Source: Escherichia coli (lineage in GTDB: Bacteria > Pseudomonadota > Gammaproteobacteria > Enterobacterales > Enterobacteriaceae). Taken from it: a stretch of DNA of 64,000 nt. Positions 24,511 to 34,959 of this stretch are shown here, in pieces (position 1 is the stretch's first letter; each line of letters begins with the position of its first letter). Position numbers and translations under genes: made by a program. The notes beneath the pieces were generated by a model. That model worked only from the letters and a program-made list of their open reading frames with translations. It made no database searches and was not told the DNA's origin. Where the stretch lies: NCBI RefSeq assembly GCF_050320075.1, contig NZ_CP190018.1; one strand, written 5' to 3'.

Positions 24511-25389
24511 ATGCTGTTTAAATATTGTCCTATTAATGAGTATTCAATTAAATCTCTAGTGGAAAACAAACTATATCTTAATCATCTCAACATGATGAAT
24601 GACAGTGCTGAAGGTTTTTGTAAGATAATAAGTGGTTTCCCAGATTATAATGAAAAAACTGAGAGATATGATTTGATAATAAAAACATGGTGTGGAGAGT
24701 CTGGCTGGCTACCTTCTGAATATGAATATAACGAATATATTGATTCAATGAGAGAACTGGAACCAAATGTCCCGCAATTGCTGGACTCTGCAAGGATATC
24801 ATGCTTTACGAATACGGCGTTAAACCCTACAATGTGGGCTCATTATGCTAACAACAGAACAGGTATATGTATAGAATTCGATCAAGACAAAATAAGAGAA
24901 CTAGAGGATATCTATATCTTTGACGTCAAATATAAAGATCGCCCTCCGACTATTGATACTGCAGTACTAACATTAATAGCTGATCAGGTGAACTATAATC
25001 ATGATGCAATTTATGATGATTATCAAGAAAAGTTCAAACATCTTTATGAACAAGCATTTGACGAGGGAAGAAATTTGCTTTTGGAAATTTACAATGGAAT
25101 ATTGGCAACTAAATCTCAAGAATGGTCTTATGAACAAGAAAAACGGCTAATATATATTTTATCCTTCTCACAAGAAGACAAATTGGCAAAAAAATATAAA
25201 ACTGGCATAAACATATCACTCCCTGAAGGATGCATTAAAAGTGTTATCCTAGGTGAGAAGACAAGTGAGCATGATAAAAAACTTATAGTTTCAGCTATAA
25301 AAAAACATTCTAAACACATTAAGTTGAAGAGAGCTACAATAACACAAGGCGAATATTTATTATCTATTCGTGATGAAGTTTTTAGCTGA
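24511..25389 (+). CDS. hypothetical protein, DUF2971-like (cargo of the b-region slot)
   Basis: 292-aa ORF in roughly 30% GC DNA; N-terminus MLFKYCPINEYSIKSLVENKLYL...NDSAEGF and central NPTMWAHYANNRTGICIEFD resemble DUF2971 signatures as I remember them. Confidence 0.6.
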   Translation: MLFKYCPINEYSIKSLVENKLYLNHLNMMNDSAEGFCKIISGFPDYNEKTERYDLIIKTWCGESGWLPSEYEYNEYIDSMRELEPNVPQLLDSARISCFTNTALNPTMWAHYANNRTGICIEFDQDKIRELEDIYIFDVKYKDRPPTIDTAVLTLIADQVNYNHDAIYDDYQEKFKHLYEQAFDEGRNLLLEIYNGILATKSQEWSYEQEKRLIYILSFSQEDKLAKKYKTGINISLPEGCIKSVILGEKTSEHDKKLIVSAIKKHSKHIKLKRATITQGEYLLSIRDEVFS

Positions 25390-25934: not shown

Positions 25935-26348
25935 ATGGCTGACATTGTCACTGGTTTGACCGCACTCAAAACCGCCTTTGATTTAGCAAAAGATATAAAA
26001 AATGCCACTGGCGCATACAATGATGCAGAAATGAGGCTTAAGTTTAGTGAGCTTTATAGCGCGCTATCTGAAGCCAAAATAGAACTGGCTGATACACAGC
26101 TAGAAATGTATGAACTAAAGCTGAAGATCGAAGAGTTGCAAGCTAAGCTTGATGCATCGGACGAGCTTGAATATAGGGAAAACGTATACTGGAGGGCCTC
26201 ACCTATCAATGGCAAACCAAACGGTCCTTTTTGCCCAAGATGTTATGAAAGTTCAGAGAAGAAGCTATCTTCAATGAGTCAAGTAACGGGGCATGCAACT
26301 ATTGCTGGAAAATACAAATGTAATACTTGTAACGCCTACGTTAGATAA
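25935..26348 (+). CDS. hypothetical coiled-coil protein with C-terminal four-cysteine zinc-ribbon-like motif
   Basis: 137 aa; N-terminal heptad-rich helix (LSEAKIELADTQLEMYELKLKIEELQAKLDA), C-terminal CPRC...(23 aa)...CNTC; AT-rich; preceded by aagaggaa RBS-like sequence. Confidence 0.55.
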   Translation: MADIVTGLTALKTAFDLAKDIKNATGAYNDAEMRLKFSELYSALSEAKIELADTQLEMYELKLKIEELQAKLDASDELEYRENVYWRASPINGKPNGPFCPRCYESSEKKLSSMSQVTGHATIAGKYKCNTCNAYVR

Positions 26349-26684
26349 AAAGCCGTTATGGGGCTGGGACGGAGGCTCAAATCCTCTCGTGCAAAAATTC
26401 AGCTAAAACTTTTGTTCAGGAGACTCTGAAAGATACCAAGAAGTCTGCTGACGAGTGGTTTATTTACTAATTAGCACGTAAAATCTATTATGGCTGGAAA
26501 TCATTCAATACTCGTACTATCGAAAGTTCGCCAGCCGACAGCAAAACGCTATTGCATGGCAGGGATTGCAGGCCTCTCGATATTCGGTGCTAAGGATGTA
26601 TCAACACGGTTCAGCAGAACCCGATGCGTCTTCAAAACCGCAGCAACGATATCTCTTCCTCCGTTCCATTTACAGCCACCTTTT

Positions 26685-26993
26685 TCACCCTCGATTAACC
26701 AACAACCAGACCAGAAGACACGCTACCACCGGCACAGCAAAATCCATCAGGCTTGCCATATCCCACGCGCGTGGGTCAAAACCGCCCCACCACGGCATAT
26801 TCATTCGCTTGCCATGCCCGAACATTTCGATCCAGCGATATTCTGCCTGGGTGTGTTCACGCGCAATGAAGAACGTACAACCGGCTATCGCCCCGTAAGC
26901 CCAGTTCCCGGTAAAAAGACCAATCAGTAGCTGCGCAGCCACAGCACAAAGCGCATGAAGGAAAGGTGTTATATCCATTTTCATCCCACCCAA
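26685..26993 (-). CDS. hypothetical small membrane protein
   Basis: 102-aa ORF with two hydrophobic segments, immediately downstream of the tail-fibre genes on the late strand. Confidence 0.45.
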   Translation of the reverse strand: MGGMKMDITPFLHALCAVAAQLLIGLFTGNWAYGAIAGCTFFIAREHTQAEYRWIEMFGHGKRMNMPWWGGFDPRAWDMASLMDFAVPVVACLLVWLLVNRG

Positions 26994-27020
26994 TAAAACG
27001 GGGCGCTCGGCCCCTTAATA

Positions 27021-28061
27021 TTATTTAGACGCAAGCGCCGCATCAATTGCAGATAATCTTTGTCTTAATTCTGCGTTTTCTTCTTCCAGTGCTGTTATTC
27101 TGTCGTCTGACTCTCTGGCTACCTGAACAAGCAAGCCAGTAACACCAGAATAATCTACTGTGTAATAACGTTCACCTTCTTCACCTTCCGATCCGCTCGC
27201 ACCGTCCTGATATTTCATTACGGAACCTACAACTTCTGGGATTGCTTCCAGAGCTTCCTGTGCAATGACACCAGCATAGGGCATACCGTTTTCTTTAAGC
27301 GTGTATGTATAGCCGTTCATTTTACGGATGCGGTCGGTTGCATTATCGATCACCTGAATGTTGTCTTTCAGATCCCGGTCGGAATGCTGGTTAAATGCGG
27401 TGGCATGACATGCACCATTAACGCTTAACATATAGGTGTTATCGGTATTTTTCTGCGCATAGAACATATAAGCGCCACCATCAACACCGACTTCATAAAC
27501 AACAGGACGGCTGGAGTTGCCCCACAATTGAGCAGTAACACCAGCATAAGCGGTTCCCTGTGTGTTTAATGTCATGGTTGACCCATGATTGGCATATTTG
27601 ATCTGTAATGTGTCGGTGTAATCAAATTTAATAAGCGCGTTACTTCCACGCTTGCTGTATGACATAAGGCAGTTACCCATTTTGAGGTATCCGCTGTCAC
27701 CGGGAAAAATCATCGTACCGCCATAAAGGTTGGTAAAGTCCCAGCAAATGTTTGTCCCGTTATCGTTCAGGTTAAGGCGCGCCATTGCGTTACCTGGACT
27801 GTCTATCCATTTTTTGAGGTATAGTTCGCAATATGCATCCTCAACACCTGCCGTCCTGTGAGTTGAGCGGAGTTTTCTCCCAAATATAGCTCCGCTAGTT
27901 GGCAATACCTGCTGATACCATGAAGCAGACCAGTCACCAACGGTTTCATCTTTGCTGTCTACATATGATTTTGTTGCGTAGCTTCCTTGATCGTTTTTTA
28001 ATTTGCTAACGTCGGATTTTAGCGTTTTGATGTCATCAGGAATTACTGTCGATGTAGCCAT
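27021..28061 (-). CDS. tail fibre/spike-like protein with C-terminal intramolecular-chaperone (peptidase S74-like) domain
   Basis: 346 aa; C-terminal 120 aa (SDRDLKDNIQVID...GYTYTLKENGMPYAGVIAQEALEAIPEVVG...YYTVDYSGVTGLLVQVARE...LEEENAELRQRL) resemble the self-cleaving chaperone domain of endosialidase-type fibres. Confidence 0.6.
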   Translation of the reverse strand: MATSTVIPDDIKTLKSDVSKLKNDQGSYATKSYVDSKDETVGDWSASWYQQVLPTSGAIFGRKLRSTHRTAGVEDAYCELYLKKWIDSPGNAMARLNLNDNGTNICWDFTNLYGGTMIFPGDSGYLKMGNCLMSYSKRGSNALIKFDYTDTLQIKYANHGSTMTLNTQGTAYAGVTAQLWGNSSRPVVYEVGVDGGAYMFYAQKNTDNTYMLSVNGACHATAFNQHSDRDLKDNIQVIDNATDRIRKMNGYTYTLKENGMPYAGVIAQEALEAIPEVVGSVMKYQDGASGSEGEEGERYYTVDYSGVTGLLVQVARESDDRITALEEENAELRQRLSAIDAALASK

Positions 28062-28070
28062 TTTTCTTCC

Positions 28071-28352
28071 TCACATCCAGCCACGAAGTTGATGCTCAAC
28101 AGCAACCACGTATTCATCGAATATTGACGGTGTTTTCACATCATTAATGATGCGCACGTTTACAAAATATCCGTCTTCCTTAACACATACCGGTTCGCCA
28201 TCTTCATTCAGTTCTCCGGTTTCTTTGTACACGTTACCTATCACGTCAATAAGAATATCATCCTGCATCGACTCATCATCATAATAGCCAGTGCTATCCA
28301 TAAAGGCCGAAAAATCGGCCCTGTCGGCAAATTTAAGTGTTAAATCTTTCAT
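28071..28352 (-). CDS. hypothetical acidic protein between the two fibre genes
   Basis: 93-aa ORF, start overlaps stop of upstream fibre gene; no recognisable Tfa motif. Confidence 0.5.
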   Translation of the reverse strand: MKDLTLKFADRADFSAFMDSTGYYDDESMQDDILIDVIGNVYKETGELNEDGEPVCVKEDGYFVNVRIINDVKTPSIFDEYVVAVEHQLRGWM

Positions 28353-30754
28353 TTAATACTCTCCCCCATTTGCGCATCAGTTAATTCTTTATGCCAGAGA
28401 CGAAGATTTCTCAAATGGCCGAATAGATGACGTGTCCCTGATGTGGCTTGACCTCCTATTCTAATAAAGGTCCGCGTTTTTACGCCCGTCCATTCCGTTT
28501 CAATGGTTTTAGTAGCCTCACCGTTAGAAACTACTCGTTTAGTACCGTCAGAATAAATATTAAAACCACCAATGAATTTTCGAACATCCGTTCGACCAGT
28601 AAACAAACTAGAAACGTAACTACTTGTCGACGCTTTATAAGTTTGCATATAAAGCTGACCGTAATATCTCTCGGTTGTGTTAAAAGCGTATGTGATTGAC
28701 TCAATAGGCGGCACACCAGAAAAATCAAAAATACGCGGTGCTACATTAGGGGGAATATCGCCCCAATTCCTGTTAACCTCGACCAAACAAGTAAGCGGTC
28801 TGTTATAAATGTTGTTTTCGGTCGGGATCGTAACCATATCACTCGCACGAGTCGCCGCCGTCGCTCCTGATATAATAAAAGATGATACACAAGGCCCATC
28901 TTCTACTTGTGGGGTGGCCAGATAAATATAGTCACCAGATACGGTTGCCCCGCTCTGCTTAGGAGAATACTGTATCTGAGAGCCTATTTTTAACTCCCCA
29001 TCAATTGCCTGAATTGTTGCCTCTGCAAAAATCCATCCGGTAGCTTCGTCCTTTCTGACTCTCGCTGTAATCCTTGAGGCAGCACCGCCTGTCATATTAA
29101 TTTCAAGCGTTTGTGTATCAATATACGCATCACCAAGAAAAGTTGTTGCGCTACCGTCATATTTATCAAACCGGATACGCAACCTTACCTGCAGTTCTGT
29201 TTTAAAACGACATGAGGTTGTCACGTATTTATTATCGCCTGAGACATCAACTGACTTTGTTGCAGCAATTGATGCCATATTAATGGCTGAGGTTTGCCCA
29301 ATCAGAGAATCGTTACAGACAAACTTTCCATAGGTAAAACCAAAACTATCCGTCCCGGTTTCGGGAACATCCATATTTGACGATCGCCCCCAACTGGCAG
29401 GGCTTTCCGAATTGAGCATGTAGTTCGCTCTTTGCCCCTCAATAAGCAGGCCATCACGTTCAAATCGTGGCTCGTCAATGGCAGCCTCTGTCAGCACACC
29501 AGATTTATTAATATAGGTTGCTTTCGATGCGCGTTTAAACTTTACAACCTTATCGCCAGGCATCGTTATTTCATCATCACCAATAACAATCTTTTTATAT
29601 GACGGCGAAAACCCCGTAATCATATCCAGTGAATCGTTAAACGGTATCCACACATCAGGCAACGGCTGCAAAACTTGTTTATACGGCTCCGCTGCCTGGC
29701 TTGCATACTCTCTGGCTGCGTCTTCACTTGCTTTAGCTGCTGTCTGGCTTGCTGCCGATGCTTGCGCCGAGTTCGCCGCTGTAGTCTCGCTCGCCTTTGC
29801 GTTGTCTTCACTGGTTTTTGCAGCTCTTTGACTGTTGGCTGATGCCGTGGCAGAAGCAGCCGCCGCGCTTGCAGAACCAGCTGCGGCACTCTCGCTTTGG
29901 GCCGCTGCATCCTGACTGTTTTTCGCCGCAGTTTCGCTGGCTTTGGCATTCGTTTCGCTGGTCTTCGCTGCAGTCTCGCTTGTCTTTGCGTTGGTTTCAC
30001 TGGTTTTTGCAGCTCTTTGACTGTTGGCTGATGCCGTGGCAGAAGTAGCCGCCGCACTTGCAGAACTGGCTGCCGCTCTCTCGCTTTGGGCTGCTGCATC
30101 CTGACTGTTTTTTGCTGCGGTAGCGGAGTTTGCTGCGGCACTCTGACTCGATTCTGCAGCCACCTCGCTATTTTTCGCATTAGTTTCGCTGGTCTTTGAA
30201 GCTGTCTCACTCGCTTTTGAGTTGTTTTCTGATTTTTTGGCTGCAGTCGCGGAGTTTGCCGATGCAGTCTGTGAGGCCGCTGCCGCCTGTGCGCTGTTAG
30301 CTGCATTCGTTTCTGAGGTTTTCGCCGCGTTCTTCGATGATGCCGCTGCAGTTTCGGATGTCTTTGCCGCCGCTGCGCTCTGAGAGGCGGCTTCAGCGTT
30401 GCGTGCCGCTTCTTCCACCATTTCCTGAAAACGGCGCAATGCCTCCGGCATGACATCATCTTCCGTCATGGCACCGAGAAAATCATTCAGCGTCCCCGGA
30501 CTGGAACCTTCATAGACGGTAATGGTCCCGGCATGTGAAGGCGGAAAACCTTCAACCAGCAGGATGACGCTGTACTGGCCATACTCAACGTCCATACTGT
30601 AACGCCCGGCTTCATCAGGATTTTCAGAGGCCACCGTGTTCACCAGTACCGTGGTGCTGTTACGCTTTGCCTTCAGTTGAATAGTGCAGTTCTGTATTGG
30701 TTTTCCCGCACCATCTTTCAGCACACCTGAGATTTTTACTGCTGCCATATCCAC
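28349..30754 (-). CDS. stf: side tail fibre protein (Stf-like): lambda-type N-terminus, Ala/Ser/Thr-rich repeat shaft, divergent C-terminal domain
   Basis: 801 aa; N-terminus MAAVKISGVLKDGAGKPIQNCTIQLKAKRNSTTVLVNTV...GRYSMDVEYGQYSVIL matches lambda Stf; central AAKTSETNAK/AAAQSE repeats; C-terminal 450 aa unlike lambda. Confidence 0.85.
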   Translation of the reverse strand: MDMAAVKISGVLKDGAGKPIQNCTIQLKAKRNSTTVLVNTVASENPDEAGRYSMDVEYGQYSVILLVEGFPPSHAGTITVYEGSSPGTLNDFLGAMTEDDVMPEALRRFQEMVEEAARNAEAASQSAAAAKTSETAAASSKNAAKTSETNAANSAQAAAASQTASANSATAAKKSENNSKASETASKTSETNAKNSEVAAESSQSAAANSATAAKNSQDAAAQSERAAASSASAAATSATASANSQRAAKTSETNAKTSETAAKTSETNAKASETAAKNSQDAAAQSESAAAGSASAAAASATASANSQRAAKTSEDNAKASETTAANSAQASAASQTAAKASEDAAREYASQAAEPYKQVLQPLPDVWIPFNDSLDMITGFSPSYKKIVIGDDEITMPGDKVVKFKRASKATYINKSGVLTEAAIDEPRFERDGLLIEGQRANYMLNSESPASWGRSSNMDVPETGTDSFGFTYGKFVCNDSLIGQTSAINMASIAATKSVDVSGDNKYVTTSCRFKTELQVRLRIRFDKYDGSATTFLGDAYIDTQTLEINMTGGAASRITARVRKDEATGWIFAEATIQAIDGELKIGSQIQYSPKQSGATVSGDYIYLATPQVEDGPCVSSFIISGATAATRASDMVTIPTENNIYNRPLTCLVEVNRNWGDIPPNVAPRIFDFSGVPPIESITYAFNTTERYYGQLYMQTYKASTSSYVSSLFTGRTDVRKFIGGFNIYSDGTKRVVSNGEATKTIETEWTGVKTRTFIRIGGQATSGTRHLFGHLRNLRLWHKELTDAQMGESIK
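29770..30140. repeat. tandem direct repeat of 189 bp (about 90% identical copies) inside stf
   Basis: tcactggtttttgcagctctttgactgttggctgatgccgtggcagaag at 29808 recurs at 29997; flanking sequence also repeats. Confidence 0.85.
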
Positions 30755-30812
30755 TCCACAAAAAAGCCCGCCTGAACCGGCGGGCTGTCATAACACTGTG
30801 TTACCTGGCTAA

Positions 30813-31412
30813 TCAGAATTTATAACCGACACCCACGATGAAACCGTCAGTGTGCCAGTCACCACTGCCGGAGCCTTCATAAGCAAGGTCAATGGCCACG
30901 GATTCGGTCGGGTTAAACTGCACGCCAGCCCCCCACGCCAGAGACGTGTCGCTGTGGCGACCGTCATCACTTCCGTTCAGCACATCGTACGTTTTCCCCT
31001 TATTGTCAGTTACGCGGAGATAATCCCCGGAGAAGGTCGACACACGGCTGTAAGCCACGCCCGCCATCGCATACGCGCTGAACCATTCATTCACGCGTAC
31101 AGACGGCCCCGCCATCATGCTGAACCAGCGGTTACGCACTGAATCTTCATGCCAGCGGGTATCGCTGTAACGGGTAATCTGGCGATTCTTGTCTCCTGCA
31201 TAACTGAATGACGTCACCAGCCCCAGCGTGTCCGTAAATTCATAACGGTATTTCACGTTAATGCCCTTCAGGTCATCACTGCCTGGCATATCAGTATGGG
31301 CCTGAAGATACCCGGCGCTTAGTGTGGACTGATGCTCTGCTGCGCTCGCTGGCGTACCAACGGCAACCAGCCAGACTACTGCGGACAGAATAACAGCACA
31401 TAATTTACGCAT
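30813..31412 (-). CDS. lom: outer-membrane protein Lom (Ail/PagC/OmpX family)
   Basis: 199 aa with signal peptide and C-terminal ...[11 protein letters not shown] identical to the lambda Lom terminus; directly downstream of J. Confidence 0.9.
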
Positions 31413-31479: not shown

Positions 31480-34400
31480 TCAGCTGATACTGATGCCTGC
31501 GGTGGCTTTCTTCATCACCACAACCAGCAAATCGCTGATACTTGCTGTGGGATACCAGTCATTTACCAGCCATGCTGACACCGAAAACTCCAGCGTCATG
31601 TGACCGTGACCGGCAGGCATATCAACAACGCCACTGTAAATCAGCGTATTATCCAGCGCGGTACGGTTATAAATTTCAGCACCGTTTTTCCGCACTATCA
31701 GACGGCATGAGGAGTAAATATCAGTATGCTCTCTCTCATGTTTAGCGCCGCTGAATGCCACCGCCGGAATAACAATCTGCCGGTCAAACGGCTGATCGTC
31801 ATAAACCCTGACGGTAATGGTCCCTGATGGCCACCGTTCCGGTGCACGGGAGTCACGGGGGAAAGCTTTGCCCACTGTTTTAACGAGATCGCCTTCAATC
31901 TGGTTCGCGGACAGTTTTCCCAGAACCCGGCAATTCTCGTTAATCGTGACGTTGTTGAGCGTCCCGGAGTTCGCATTCACGTTACCGCTGATATCGGCAT
32001 TTTTTGCCGTCAGCCGCCCGTCCGGTGTCAGGGAAAATGCCGGAGGATTACCGCCGCTGGTAATGGTGGGAGCCGTCAGATATTTCAGGAACACTTCATT
32101 CATAAATATCTGATCGCCCTGACCAACAAACATCGGCTTTGTGTTGCCATTCGCAGGATTAATCATCGCAATCCTGTCTGCCGCCAGCAGCACCTGACTC
32201 TGCATGCCGTCAGGGGTGTTTTCAATACCGGCACCAATACCCGCGATATAAAGGCGTCCGTCCTGCATCTGCTGCAGCTTCACAGCCCACATGCTGCTCA
32301 GGTTATTATTTGTATCAACCTGAACCTTCTGTATCTGCTGGATCGCTGCACTCTGGTCTTCCAGTTTCTTATTGACGGTCTGCGTGATTTCATTGCTGAC
32401 ATCCGTAATGGACGTCCTGATTTCAGCCAGGTCAGGCGCAAGCTGACCGTTATCAATCTGCGTCCACAGCTCCTGAGCCAGATGGGTTTTCCCTATCTCT
32501 CCTTTGAAAAAATCCAGATAGCCGGATGCATCATCACTCGGCTGGCCAACAGCCTCCACAAATGCCGATTTGCCAACGGTGTTCACACTGCGGATGTAAA
32601 AATAATAATCACGGCCCGGTTTGATATTGATACTGGCGGCTATCCAGTACAGCGCCGTGCCAAGATAGCGGGCTGTGGTTTCAACCTGCCTGATATCGGT
32701 AATCCGCGTTTCCGAGAACCAGAACTCAAACTGTACCGTCGGATCATAAACCGCAAGATGCGGCGTGGCAGTTATCTGAAAATAGCCCGGCGTCAGCTCA
32801 ATCCGCGACGGCGCTGCCGGTGCGGCAATCCGGAACGATACCGACGCCGGATCGCCCTGCTGCCCCCAGGCATTTGCCGCCCGGACTGTCAGCCTGTAGT
32901 TTCCCAACGCCAGTTGCGTGAAGCGGTATGTGGTTTCCGTCGTCCGGGCCGTGCTGACCAGCCGCTCACTGCCGTCATCCGCTGCCACGGTCAGGCGAAG
33001 CATAAAGCTCACGCCCTTCACCACCTTCGGCGTGTCCCAGCGCGCCAGTACCTGATATTCCCCGCTGTCTGCGGTGACTTCGGCAGTCAGGTGCTGCACC
33101 GCTGGCGGCGTGACACCATTCACCGTGCCACTCTGGTCGCCGTCAAAGTGCGCCCCGTTATCCACGATGGCCTCTTTTTCCGGCACATGCTGCACAGCGG
33201 TGATGGCATACGTGCCGTCGTCGTTCTCACGGATACTCACACAGCGGAACAGGCGCTGACGCAGCATCGGCAGCTTCAGCCCCCACACGCTGTATTCGGC
33301 AACGCCGTCAGGAACACGGCTCACTTTTACCTTCACGCCGTCGGTGACGGACTGGACCTCCACGCTCACCGGATTACCCTGCCCGTCAACCAGGCTTATC
33401 AGCGTGGTACCGGAGGATGGCAGCGTGATTTCACGGTCGAGCGTCAGCGTCCGGGTCTGGCTGTTCACCGCCAGCACGCGACCACCGATGCTGATACCGG
33501 CATAGTCATCATCACAGATTTCAATGACATCGCCCGGTACATGGCGAAGCCCTTCGGCACCCACGCTGAAGTCCACGGTCTGCGTTTCCAGCAGTTCCGT
33601 TTTAATCAGCCACAGCCCGGCGCGGTGCGCCTGCCCCCGGCTGGTACAGCCAAAGGCATCCATCTTCGTGACGTTACGACCGTAACGGAGAATGGCCTGC
33701 GTATCTTCAACAAGCTCTGTCGCCGTCTCCCAGCCGTTATTCGGGTCAATCCAGTTCACCTCAACGGCATTATGGCGGTCCTTCAGGGCGCTGAAGCTGT
33801 AGCGGAACGGCGCGCCATCATCCGGCATCACCACATTACTGTGGTTATAGGTCCACACCTTATCCGACGGTCGGTCCTGCACGAACGTCAGCGTCTGCCC
33901 GTTCCATACCGGCATACAGCGCATCGCCGAACAGAAATCACTGAGCACATCCCACGCCTTACGCTGTGTGGTCAGCCAGGCATTACAGGTGATGCGCGGC
34001 TCCGTACCACCAAAGCCATCCGGCACTGACTGATCGCAATACTGGCCGATGACATACAGCGCCCATTTGTCCACATCCGCCGCACCAAGACGTTTCCCCA
34101 TGCCGTAGCGCGGGTGGGTCAGCATATCCCACAGACACCAGGCCATGTTGTTGCTGTATGCCGGTTTAAACGTCCCGTCCCAGATACCGCTGTATTGCCG
34201 CGTCTGCGGGTTATAGTTCGATGGCACCTGCAGAATGCGCCCGCGAAGATGATAATTACGGCTCACCTGCTGGCTGCCGAACTGTTCCGAGTCCACCTGC
34301 ACGCCGACCAGTGCCGTGTTCGGGTAGCACTGTTTCACATCGATGATTTCAGTGTATGACGACCAGAGCGTTTTGTTCTGCAGCTGGTCTGTGGTGCTGT

Positions 34401-34959
34401 CCGGCGTCATCCTGCGCATCCGGATATTAAACGGGCGCGGCGGCAGGTTACCCACCACCACCGATGCCAGATACTGTGAGGTGGTTTTGCCTTTAATGGT
34501 GATGTCTTTTTCCGTCACCCAGCCACCGTTACGCTGTATCTGAACCAGCAGGCGGACTTCCGACGGATTCCGGTCCCCCTTTGAGGTGGTTTCCACCAGT
34601 GCCTGCACACCGAAGGTAAAGCGCAGACGGTCGATGTTTGCAGACGTGATGGTCCGGGTAATCGGCGTGTCGTACTTCACTTCCGTACCCAGCACCGTCT
34701 CGGAGCCGGAGGATTCAAATCCCTCCGGCGGTGTCTGCTCCTGCTCACCTGCCCGGAAAACCACCGTGACACCGGAGATATTGGTATTCCCCTCACTGTC
34801 CAGCACTGGCGTACTGTTCAGCAGCACACTTTTTAATCCGTCCACCGGACCTTCAATCGGCCCTTCACTGATGGCGTCTATCACGCTCAGCATCTGCGTG
34901 GACTTCAGGTTGTCCTTCGCTTCGCGCGGGGTATGCCCCTTACTGCTGCCTTTACCCAT
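31480..34959 (-). CDS. J: tail tip host-specificity protein J with divergent C-terminal receptor-binding region
   Basis: 1159 aa; [22 protein letters not shown]... near-identical to lambda gpJ for about the first 800 residues; last 330 residues diverge. Confidence 0.93.

What the first reader, a model, noticed from the sequence alone, without database searches (positions are those of the whole stretch)
27021..30754. Rebuilt side-tail-fibre module: chimeric Stf, no recognisable Tfa, and a second fibre protein with a self-cleaving chaperone-like domain
The 801-aa Stf keeps the lambda N-terminus (virion attachment) but carries a different C-terminal region of about 450 aa. Downstream, instead of the lambda tail fibre assembly gene, there is a 93-aa acidic protein and a 346-aa protein whose C-terminus resembles the intramolecular chaperone of endosialidase-type fibres. 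This points to horizontal exchange of the receptor-recognition end and possibly a branched or dual fibre, so a host range different from lambda.
Basis: partly seen in the sequence, partly recalled or inferred. Interest (0 to 1): 0.5.

Follow-up and report, generated by a model that had tools for sequence, protein, structure and literature searches.

The report
Two-part side tail fibre cassette
This lambda-like prophage has swapped the outer half of its side tail fibre for a widespread three-gene cassette: a lectin-tipped fibre, a small partner protein and a short self-processing distal fibre.

Summary

The 93-aa acidic protein (pI 4.1) belongs to a small uncharacterised family. In all 15 contexts examined it directly follows a LamG-ended fibre protein. 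It has no Pfam match and no solved structural relative.

The 346-aa protein carries a Peptidase_S74 chaperone domain (E 1.5e-13) with a Ser227/Lys232 dyad.

No Tfa gene is present. A 28-codon relic of the tfa 3' end survives at 26549-26635.

The cassette is common: at least 80% of it is present in 373 of 5,426 complete E. coli genomes and in phages Tritos, HannyBb and PhiR63_1. It is shared with T1-like, 9g-like, Dhillonvirus and T5-like phages.

The same three-gene layout in phage IrisVonRoten has been modelled as a proximal plus distal fibre.

What is new here is modest. Distal proteins share a conserved ~15-30-aa N-terminal motif, and three variable modules reassort freely.

Verdict: a new member of a known kind, of low to moderate interest.

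The parts
28349..30748 (-). stf: side tail fibre protein, 799 aa from ATG 30748 (801 aa if the GTG at 30754 is used)
   Evidence: ORF. GGAG ribosome-binding site and RefSeq start. Full-length match to PHROG 1419 'tail protein'.
30356..30742 (-). Stf residues 5-133: lambda-type collar / virion-attachment domain
   Evidence: Pfam phage_tail_N E 2.8e-65. PDB 9e7m E 2.5e-49. 83/93 identical to lambda. In Ur-lambda, 12 copies form the collar that carries four trimeric fibres (PMC12617516).
29672..30355 (-). Stf residues 134-361: Ala/Ser-rich shaft with 7-residue periodicity
   Evidence: Aligns with the lambda Stf proximal coiled coil. 21/42-nt tandem repeats.
29420..29671 (-). Stf residues 362-445: conserved junction (LQPLPDVWIPFNDSLD ... 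EPRFERDGLLIEGQR); left boundary of the foreign cassette
   Evidence: Conserved in all 10 aligned homologues from six phage lineages. Low pLDDT as a monomer.
28892..29419 (-). Stf residues 446-621: first beta-sandwich domain (variable module b)
   Evidence: AF2 pLDDT about 90. NCBIfam GTA_spike_fiber domain at 437-637, E 6.9e-12. Alleles at about 98, 55, 36 and 30% identity.
28349..28891 (-). Stf residues 622-801: C-terminal LamG / concanavalin-A-like domain (variable module c)
28071..28352 (-). 93-aa acidic partner protein; its start overlaps the stf stop (ATGA)
27969..28061 (-). 346-aa protein residues 1-31: conserved N-terminal motif MATSTVIPDDIKTLK..., proposed docking peptide
   Evidence: This is the only segment shared by the alternative type A and type B distal proteins. 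The same motif occurs in JenP1, IrisVonRoten gp24, KarlBarth and KarlJaspers, and in 59 phage records, always next to the small-protein gene.
27384..27968 (-). 346-aa protein residues 32-226: mature distal fibre / receptor-binding part (24.9 kDa together with residues 1-31)
   Evidence: Matches to C-terminal parts of long tail fibre PHROGs 6578, 5668 and 1980. Internal variable patch at about residues 36-135.
27021..27383 (-). 346-aa protein residues 227-346: intramolecular chaperone (Peptidase_S74) with Ser227/Lys232 and a C-terminal coiled coil
   Evidence: Pfam E 1.5e-13. Matches the S16 gp37 chaperone region 6f45 at E 8e-5. Dyad spacing equals T5 pb1 Ser1264/Lys1269 (PMC4690869).
27000..27014 (-). 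terminator-like hairpin directly after the 346-aa gene
   Evidence: Consensus scan only.
30765..30786 (-). terminator-like hairpin between lom and stf
   Evidence: Consensus scan only.
26549..26635 (-). 28-codon relic of the lambda-type tfa 3' end (right-hand scar of the replacement)
   Evidence: 19/27 identical to lambda Tfa 167-194. RefSeq names it 'tail fiber assembly protein'.

Best explanation
This is the side (lateral) tail fibre cassette of a lambda-like prophage integrated next to ybhB-bioA.

Shown by homology:
- The Stf N-terminal collar domain is that of lambda. Twelve copies should therefore ring the tail tip and carry four trimeric fibres.
- The Ala/Ser-rich shaft follows.
- From residue 362 the protein belongs to a different, widely exchanged fibre family.

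Predicted:
- This C-terminal part folds as two concanavalin-A/LamG-like beta-sandwiches. That is a lectin-type fold, so they probably bind a surface glycan such as O-antigen or LPS.

Inferred:
- The 93-aa acidic alpha/beta protein is translationally coupled to stf and is the obligate partner of this LamG-ended fibre type. It takes the positional place of Tfa. It acts either as a folding helper or as a cap or adaptor on the fibre end.
- The 346-aa protein is a short distal fibre. Its C-terminal chaperone domain drives trimer folding and then removes itself by Ser227/Lys232 autoproteolysis. This leaves a 226-residue (24.9 kDa) mature protein.
- The distal fibre plugs onto the Stf C-terminus and/or the 93-aa protein through its conserved first ~15-30 residues.

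The result would be a composite fibre with up to three independently exchangeable binding modules (Stf domain b, Stf domain c, distal fibre). It would set primary adsorption specificity differently from lambda's OmpC-binding Stf.
For: Identity of the parts.

Chaperone domain: the Pfam match starts exactly at Ser227. The S-x4-K spacing is that of T5 pb1 Ser1264/Lys1269, whose S1264A mutant stays uncleaved (PMC4690869).

One unit: there is an ATGA overlap between stf and the 93-aa gene and a 9-nt gap before the 346-aa gene. Terminator-like hairpins flank the block.

The cassette moves as a block into unrelated tails: ESCO3 and JenP1 (Nonagvirus), KarlJaspers (T1-like), KarlBarth (Dhillonvirus) and IrisVonRoten (T5-like). 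The only constant partners of the distal protein are therefore Stf-C and the small protein.

Docking peptide: type A (346 aa) and type B (234 aa, also Peptidase_S74) share only residues 1-31. The motif recurs across lineages.

Free reassortment of domain b alleles, domain c alleles and distal type is seen with a near-constant 93-aa protein.

The small protein follows a LamG-ended protein in 15 of 15 contexts.

Precedent: IrisVonRoten gp22 is 52% identical over Stf-C. It was modelled as a proximal fibre with a protruding galectin-like domain, and gp24 as its distal fibre (PMC11990801).

Viability: plaque-forming phages Tritos, HannyBb and PhiR63_1 carry the module at ~94% identity.
Against: - No experiment or complex model shows where the distal fibre binds. 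The published IrisVonRoten models treated gp22 and gp24 separately and ignored gp23.
- Phage 21 and ev243 have the Stf-C type and the small protein but no distal fibre. The distal fibre is therefore dispensable for this Stf, and the small protein cannot be only a distal-fibre adaptor.
- The Stf-C model is a monomer with moderate confidence (pLDDT 76.6), and its first 80 residues are poor.
- Glycan binding is inferred from fold only.
- The 346-aa mature part was not modelled.
- The Gp12-like first binding domain of the 'T-shaped' gp24 was not detected in it by BLAST.
Confidence: 0.6

Rival explanations
1. The 346-aa protein is not a virion component. It would be a trans-acting assembly chaperone for Stf, as some database records imply with names such as 'endosialidase chaperone' or 'putative lateral tail fiber chaperone'. 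The fibre would then be Stf alone.
For: Annotations in ESCO3, JK16, KarlJaspers and PeterMerian. The type B version has a very short mature part, about 115 aa and mostly coiled coil.
Against: Peptidase_S74 chaperones act in cis on the polypeptide upstream of them (PMC4690869). The upstream 226 residues match the C-terminal fibre parts of several tail fibre PHROGs. They also show allelic variation typical of receptor-binding parts. Phage 21 and ev243 have homologous Stf C-termini without this gene, so Stf does not need it to fold.
Confidence: 0.1
2. The 346-aa protein forms an independent second fibre. It would bind the tail tip or collar directly, giving two separate fibre sets rather than a composite or branched one.
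For: Many phages carry two independent receptor-binding proteins (PMC11990801). No junction has been demonstrated.
Against: The protein has no recognisable tail-binding domain. It travels with Stf-C and the small protein into at least five different tail architectures whose tips differ. A conserved N-terminal peptide would have no conserved partner there except the cassette itself.
Confidence: 0.1
3. On the role of the 93-aa protein: it is purely a non-structural folding helper for the LamG-ended Stf, a functional analogue of Tfa. It would play no part in attaching the distal fibre, which would bind Stf directly.
For: It is present with the same Stf type where there is no distal fibre, in phage 21, ev243 and metagenomic loci. 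It is small, acidic and translationally coupled, like many fibre chaperones. Family-wide conserved residues do not depend on the presence of a distal fibre.
Against: Nothing tested here excludes it. Its near-invariance (>=90% identity) while Stf domains b and c and the distal type all vary would also fit a structural connector with conserved interfaces. There is no fold similarity to Tfa, gp57A or gp38.
Confidence: 0.4
4. The module is a decaying remnant in a cryptic prophage and makes no functional fibres in this strain.
For: A tfa relic and a DinI-like fragment lie just downstream. Five of 36 type A distal genes in related loci are truncated.
Against: All three ORFs here are intact and have good ribosome-binding sites. 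The 3.7-kb block is 100% identical across the 15 listed genomes, which come from varied sources. Upstream tail genes J, I, K, L, M and H are intact. Free-living phages carry the same module.
Confidence: 0.08

Closest known systems
Lateral tail fibre locus of Tequintavirus IrisVonRoten (Bas32): gp22, gp23, gp24 (PMC11990801)
   Same: Same three-gene order. gp22 is 52% identical over the C-terminal 450 aa. gp23 is 37% identical to the 93-aa protein. gp24 starts with the same N-terminal motif and ends in an intramolecular chaperone. It was modelled as a proximal fibre with a protruding galectin-like domain plus a distal fibre.
   Different: The N-terminal anchor is T5-type, not the lambda collar. 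gp24 is 574 aa and 'T-shaped', with a Gp12-like first binding domain that BLAST did not detect in the 346-aa protein. The paper does not discuss gp23 or the junction.
Side tail fibre of phage 21 and phage ev243 (lambdoid)
   Same: Lambda-type N-terminus, the same C-terminal fibre family (70% and 51% identity) and a small partner protein (53% and 42% identity). The same 97-aa membrane protein follows downstream, 95% identical in phage 21.
   Different: No distal fibre gene: the small protein is followed directly by the membrane protein. The LamG-domain alleles differ.
Lambda (Ur-lambda) Stf with Tfa
   Same: Collar domain and proximal coiled coil. Four trimeric fibres attach at the gpV/gpM junction (PMC12617516).
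   Different: Lambda's distal part is gp37-like, binds OmpC and needs Tfa. Here that part and tfa are replaced, and only a 28-codon tfa relic remains.
T5 pb1 L-shaped tail fibre and K1F endosialidase (Peptidase_S74 intramolecular chaperones)
   Same: C-terminal chaperone domain with a Ser-x4-Lys dyad, released after trimer folding (PMC4690869).
   Different: In those cases the chaperone sits on the single long fibre or spike protein. Here it sits on a short separate distal protein of 226 mature residues.
DT57C LtfA/LtfB branched lateral tail fibres (PMC4728585, PMC10713586)
   Same: A two-protein lateral fibre in which the second protein is held through the first, giving two specificities.
   Different: No sequence relationship was tested here. 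The attachment site is also unresolved there.
T2/S16 gp37 with gp38
   Same: A fibre whose chaperone domain is related in sequence (6f45, E 8e-5), combined with a small separately encoded tip protein.
   Different: gp38 is a glycine-rich adhesin that binds the cleaved gp37 tip. The 93-aa protein is unrelated and is encoded before, not after, the chaperone-bearing protein.

Membership tests
Lambda-type side tail fibre (Pfam phage_tail_N, PF08400) | N-terminal collar domain homologous to lambda gpStfN 1-94 | tested here: met
   Pfam E 2.8e-65. PDB 9e7m E 2.5e-49. 83/93 identical.
Lambda-type side tail fibre (Pfam phage_tail_N, PF08400) | Position directly after J and lom in a lambda-like tail operon | tested here: met
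   J is 83% and Lom 43% identical to lambda, and the gene order is J-lom-stf.
Lambda Stf/Tfa receptor-binding end | gp37-like distal domain (orf-401 C-terminus / orf-314) and a Tfa assembly protein | tested here: not met
   No similarity of Stf 362-801, the 93-aa protein or the 346-aa protein to orf-314 or Tfa (E > 0.5). Only a 28-codon tfa relic remains.
Peptidase_S74 intramolecular chaperone | Profile match to the chaperone domain at the C-terminal end of a fibre protein | tested here: met
   PF13884 E 1.5e-13, residues 227-278, model positions 1-57 of 58. 6f45 E 8e-5 and a weak MYRF hit.
Peptidase_S74 intramolecular chaperone | Catalytic Ser and Lys five residues apart at the domain start | tested here: met
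   S227-DRDL-K232, invariant in 5 aligned homologues. Same spacing as T5 Ser1264/Lys1269.
Peptidase_S74 intramolecular chaperone | Autoproteolytic release after trimerisation | not testable with these tools
   Needs expression of wild type and S227A, followed by SDS-PAGE or mass spectrometry.
Concanavalin-A-like / LamG lectin domain (Laminin_G_3) | Profile match | tested here: inconclusive
   Window protein E 0.0047. Three of 10 homologues reach <=1e-3, best 4e-6. Precomputed Laminin_G_3 hits occur on distant homologues.
Concanavalin-A-like / LamG lectin domain (Laminin_G_3) | Beta-sandwich jelly-roll fold | tested here: met
Concanavalin-A-like / LamG lectin domain (Laminin_G_3) | Carbohydrate binding | not testable with these tools
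   Needs glycan arrays or adsorption assays.
Tail fibre assembly proteins (Tfa / Caudo_TAP), considered for the 93-aa protein | Sequence or fold similarity to Tfa | tested here: not met
IrisVonRoten-type two-part lateral fibre (gp22/gp23/gp24) | Homologues of the proximal fibre C-terminus and of the small protein, in the same order | tested here: met
   52% and 37% identity, and the same gene order.
IrisVonRoten-type two-part lateral fibre (gp22/gp23/gp24) | Distal protein with the shared N-terminal motif and a C-terminal chaperone domain | tested here: met
   Motif alignment. Peptidase_S74 match.
IrisVonRoten-type two-part lateral fibre (gp22/gp23/gp24) | T-shaped distal fibre with a Gp12-like first binding domain | tested here: not met
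   No BLAST similarity between the 346-aa protein and gp24 beyond the motif. The protein is 228 residues shorter. Its structure was not modelled, so only the sequence test was run.

The most novel reading that the evidence does not exclude
The ~92-aa acidic protein and the ~15-30-residue N-terminal motif (M-A/V-T-x-T-x-I-P-x-D-I-x-x-L-K) may form a universal plug-and-socket. On this reading the small protein caps LamG-ended lateral fibres and serves as the socket onto which interchangeable, self-processing distal fibres are plugged. That would be an undescribed connector shared by lambdoid, T1-like, 9g-like, Dhillonvirus and T5-like phages. It would explain the free reassortment of three specificity modules and could be used to retarget phage particles.
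Probability: 0.3. Interest if true: 0.55.

Novelty: new member of a known kind. Interest (0 to 1): 0.3.

Why it matters
Side fibres set the first, often O-antigen-dependent, step of adsorption. They therefore influence which E. coli strains a temperate phage can lysogenise or transduce.

This cassette is in about 7% of complete E. coli genomes. It is exchanged between temperate and virulent phages of at least five lineages.

Lambda Stf chimeras are already used to retarget phage-derived delivery particles. It would be practically useful to know three things about this cassette:
- It has conserved junctions at Stf residue ~362, at the Stf end / small-protein start, and at the distal N-terminal motif.
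- It has three swappable binding modules.
- It has a partner protein that probably has to be co-transferred.

Scientifically it adds a lambdoid example and some comparative detail to an architecture so far only modelled for one T5-like phage. It does not reveal a new principle.

Tried and rejected
- Searching the 5.8-billion-protein collection with the 93-aa protein returned only near-identical, unnamed E. coli proteins. It gave no annotation gain.
- Searching the same collection with the 40-aa N-terminal motif returned only short fragments. It was not informative. A tblastn search of phage records replaced it.
- The IMG/VR locus search returned only homologues of the small protein at >=90% identity. 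These were useful for the reassortment table but not for deep diversity.
- Two long proteins hit by the small-protein profile, P0166 and P0172, are TPR or repeat proteins and were rejected as spurious.
- PADLOC gave no defence-system hit for the three fibre genes or the membrane protein.
- A linker-fused multimer prediction to test the junction was considered and rejected. The tool returns no coordinates or interface scores, so docking could not have been judged.
- The 279-aa ORF at 29620-30459, in another frame on the same strand, was rejected as an artefact of the repetitive Ala/Ser-coding shaft.


Full report
**What is in the sequence**

On the minus strand the order is J (31480-34959), lom (30813-31412), stf (28349-30754), a 93-aa ORF (28071-28352), a 346-aa ORF (27021-28061) and a 102-aa membrane-protein ORF (26685-26993).

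The stf stop and the 93-aa start overlap as ATGA. The 346-aa gene starts 9 nt after the 93-aa stop, behind a GAGGA. Terminator-like hairpins lie just before stf (30765-30786) and just after the 346-aa gene (27000-27014). These are consensus matches only.

The most likely stf start is ATG 30748. It has a GGAG 7 nt upstream, it is the RefSeq start, and lambda Stf begins MAVKISG. That gives 799 aa rather than 801.

An identical region in E. coli YZLc1-3 places the prophage end about 3.3 kb from ybhB-bioA, in the gal-bio region where lambda integrates (my own knowledge for the attachment site). Intact tail genes lie upstream.

**Checking the observation**

- Stf residues 5-97 are 83/93 identical to lambda Stf.
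- They match the solved Ur-lambda collar domain 9e7m at E 2.5e-49 and Pfam phage_tail_N at E 2.8e-65.
- The Ala/Ser-rich shaft aligns repetitively with lambda to about residue 324. It contains 21/42-nt tandem repeats, which is a seven-residue period.
- Stf 362-801, the 93-aa protein and the 346-aa protein have no similarity to lambda orf-401 C-terminus, orf-314 or Tfa.
- The 93-aa protein has pI 4.09.
- The 346-aa protein has Peptidase_S74 at 227-278, E 1.5e-13, beginning at model position 1 on Ser227 with Lys232 five residues on. This is the same spacing as T5 pb1 Ser1264/Lys1269, where S1264A blocks cleavage (PMC4690869).

One refinement: 26549-26635 (minus) encodes LKTHRVLLNRVDTSLAPNIERPAIPAMQ. 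This is 19/27 identical to the last 27 residues of lambda Tfa, and RefSeq calls it 'tail fiber assembly protein'. I read it as the right-hand scar of the replaced lambda-type stf-tfa module.

**How common it is**

- The 3.7-kb block has at least 80% coverage in 373 of 5,426 complete E. coli genomes. Among all matching records, the best match is >=99% identical in 44 and 95-99% in 17.
- Plaque-forming phages Tritos, HannyBb and PhiR63_1 carry it at ~94% identity.
- All three proteins fall full-length into existing PHROGs: 1419, 1361 and 4563.

**The Stf C-terminus**

The last ~440 residues are homologous to fibres from several phage lineages:

| Phage | Lineage | Identity to Stf-C |
|---|---|---|
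| Phage 21 | lambdoid | 70% |
| ev243 | lambdoid | 51% |
| ESCO3 | Nonagvirus | 76% |
| JenP1 | Nonagvirus | 58% |
| IrisVonRoten gp22 | T5-like | 52% |
| KarlBarth | Dhillonvirus | 50% |
| KarlJaspers | T1-like | 45% |
| CarlMeissner | rV5-like | 37% |

An AF2 monomer model built on a 10-sequence alignment has mean pLDDT 76.6. It gives a poorly defined first 80 residues and then two all-beta domains. One spans about Stf 446-621 (pLDDT about 90) and the other about 631-796.

Pfam Laminin_G_3 is weak on the window protein (E 0.0047) but reaches 4e-6 in homologues. NCBIfam gives a GTA head-spike-fibre domain at 437-637.

This agrees with the published AlphaFold-Multimer model of IrisVonRoten gp22 339-796 (pLDDT 95.4). 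That model is described as a proximal fibre with a galectin-like domain protruding from its C-terminus, possibly an extra receptor-binding domain (PMC11990801).

**The 93-aa protein**

- It has no Pfam, NCBIfam or PDB sequence match.
- A profile search of 1.84 billion representative proteins finds only 85 clusters. Invariant or nearly invariant positions in the 44-sequence alignment are D3, L6, F8, D36, G39, G61, N65, R67, R90 and W92.
- AF2 gives a confident alpha/beta fold (pLDDT 90.8).

Its context is informative. I inspected ten phage contexts: Tritos, ESCO3, phage 21, ev243, KarlJaspers, KarlBarth, JenP1, IrisVonRoten, CarlMeissner and the window itself. I also inspected five distant metagenomic contexts.

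In all 15 the small gene directly follows a protein that ends in the LamG-type C-terminal motif, written ...IRNLRIWHxALTDxQ in its conserved form. The start and stop often overlap.

Phage 21, ev243 and at least two of the metagenomic loci (L091, L095) have this pair and no distal fibre. The small protein therefore belongs with the LamG-ended fibre, not with the distal fibre.

Whether it is a folding helper (positional analogue of Tfa) or a structural cap or adaptor cannot be decided here.

**The 346-aa protein and its alternatives**

I examined 80 IMG/VR loci whose small protein is at least 90% identical to the window's. The ORF starting 13 nt after it falls into these classes:

| Class | Loci |
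|---|---|
| Type A, full length (345-346 aa; 75-99% identical to the window protein) | 31 |
| Type A, truncated | 5 |
| Type B (229-241 aa) | 34 |
| Not assessable (contig ends) | 10 |

Type B also has Peptidase_S74, at 116-172, E 2.2e-5.

Types A and B share only residues 1-31, MATSTVIP[DG]DI[KT]TLK[SG]DVSK. The same start occurs in:
- JenP1 (MVTKTIIPTDITTLK)
- IrisVonRoten gp24 (MVTKTVIPTDITKLK)
- KarlBarth gp30 (MVTKTNIPADITALK)
- KarlJaspers gp35 (MATVTNIPADITALK)

tblastn finds the motif in 59 phage records. In every case I cross-checked (tunus, swan01, JenP2, JK16) it lies 10-20 nt downstream of the small-protein gene.

A conserved N-terminal peptide in front of alternative, unrelated, self-processing distal parts is the expected signature of a docking segment. 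The cassette sits in at least five different tail architectures. The only constant candidate partners are therefore the Stf C-terminal region and the small protein. This is an inference, not a demonstration.

PHROG 6578 (1,210 aa) matches Stf residues 36-224 with its N-terminus and 346-aa residues 132-342 with its C-terminus. A single-chain version of the same fibre therefore exists elsewhere. This supports end-to-end or composite use.

**Mosaicism**

Within the 80 loci, Stf domain b occurs as alleles about 98, 55, 36 or 30% identical to the window. Domain c occurs as alleles about 97, 48, 42 or 36% identical. These alleles and the distal type A or B occur in many mixed combinations, while the small protein stays at least 90% identical.

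The window's own combination differs from Tritos and ESCO3 only in domain c. Type A itself has an internal variable patch at about residues 36-135.

Three independently exchangeable modules flanked by conserved junctions fit a fibre with several binding specificities.

**Comparison with what is known**

Two-protein or branched lateral fibres are established or proposed in several cases:
- DT57C LtfA/LtfB (PMC4728585, PMC10713586).
- IrisVonRoten, proposed (PMC11990801).
- The first BASEL paper already notes that lateral fibres of small siphoviruses and T5-like phages can consist of one polypeptide or of two or more (PMC8594841).

Cis-acting Peptidase_S74 chaperones are textbook.

The literature held here does not mention the small-protein family, the shared N-terminal motif, or the lambdoid version of the cassette. 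These are incremental additions.

I therefore file the finding as a new member of a known kind.

**Limits**

- No complex could be modelled.
- The mature part of the 346-aa protein was not modelled.
- Glycan binding, autoproteolysis and virion incorporation are all untested.
- The reassortment table rests on prophage-derived contigs selected for a near-identical small protein.

Noticed in passing
window 26549-26635 (minus): A 28-codon ORF that is 19/27 identical to the last 27 residues of lambda Tfa. RefSeq annotates it as 'tail fiber assembly protein'. It is a relic marking where a lambda-type stf-tfa module was replaced.
   Followed up: yes
window 24511-25389 (plus): A 292-aa DUF2971 protein in a low-GC (30-41%) island between the prophage end and ybhB. 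It matches the PADLOC candidate defence family PDC-S31 (E 9.5e-38). A DUF2971 gene also lies about 1.4 kb from the small fibre-partner gene in an unrelated metagenomic phage contig (L095:5732-6478).
   Followed up: partly
window 26685-26993 (minus): A membrane protein, 97 aa from the internal ATG, that is 95% identical to the gene following the small protein in phage 21. It is also present in ev243 and Tritos. PHROG 1443, function unknown. It lies after a terminator-like hairpin, so it is probably a separately expressed moron rather than a fibre component.
   Followed up: partly
window 25935-26348 (plus) and about 26393-26470: A 137-aa coiled-coil / Cys-rich hypothetical protein and a DinI-like gene fragment (placed from RefSeq annotation of an identical genome) sit in the same low-GC cargo region.
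   Followed up: no
window 30748-30754: The longest-ORF start (GTG 30754) lies inside the ribosome-binding region. ATG 30748 with GGAG upstream is the likely stf start, giving 799 rather than 801 aa.
   Followed up: yes
window 30813-31412 and 31480-34959 (minus): Lom is only 43% identical to lambda Lom, while J is 83% identical. The J C-terminal receptor-binding region was not compared separately, so the central-fibre receptor may also differ from LamB.
   Followed up: no
window 29620-30459 (minus, other frame): A 279-aa Arg/Gln/Pro-rich ORF overlaps the stf shaft in another frame, and several ORFs lie on the plus strand. These are most likely artefacts of the repetitive GC-rich Ala/Ser coding region. 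AT skew reaches -0.42 here.
   Followed up: partly
L004:5270-5947 (KarlJaspers gp35) and similar records: Type B-like distal fibre proteins are annotated as 'putative lateral tail fiber chaperone' or 'chaperone of endosialidase' in several phage records. The whole protein is named after its C-terminal domain, which probably mislabels a structural fibre protein.
   Followed up: partly
L009, L011, L055, L083, L007 (IMG/VR loci): Five of 36 type A distal genes in related prophages are truncated (90, 189, 194 or 299 aa). The distal fibre is evidently lost repeatedly while stf and the small gene stay intact.
   Followed up: partly
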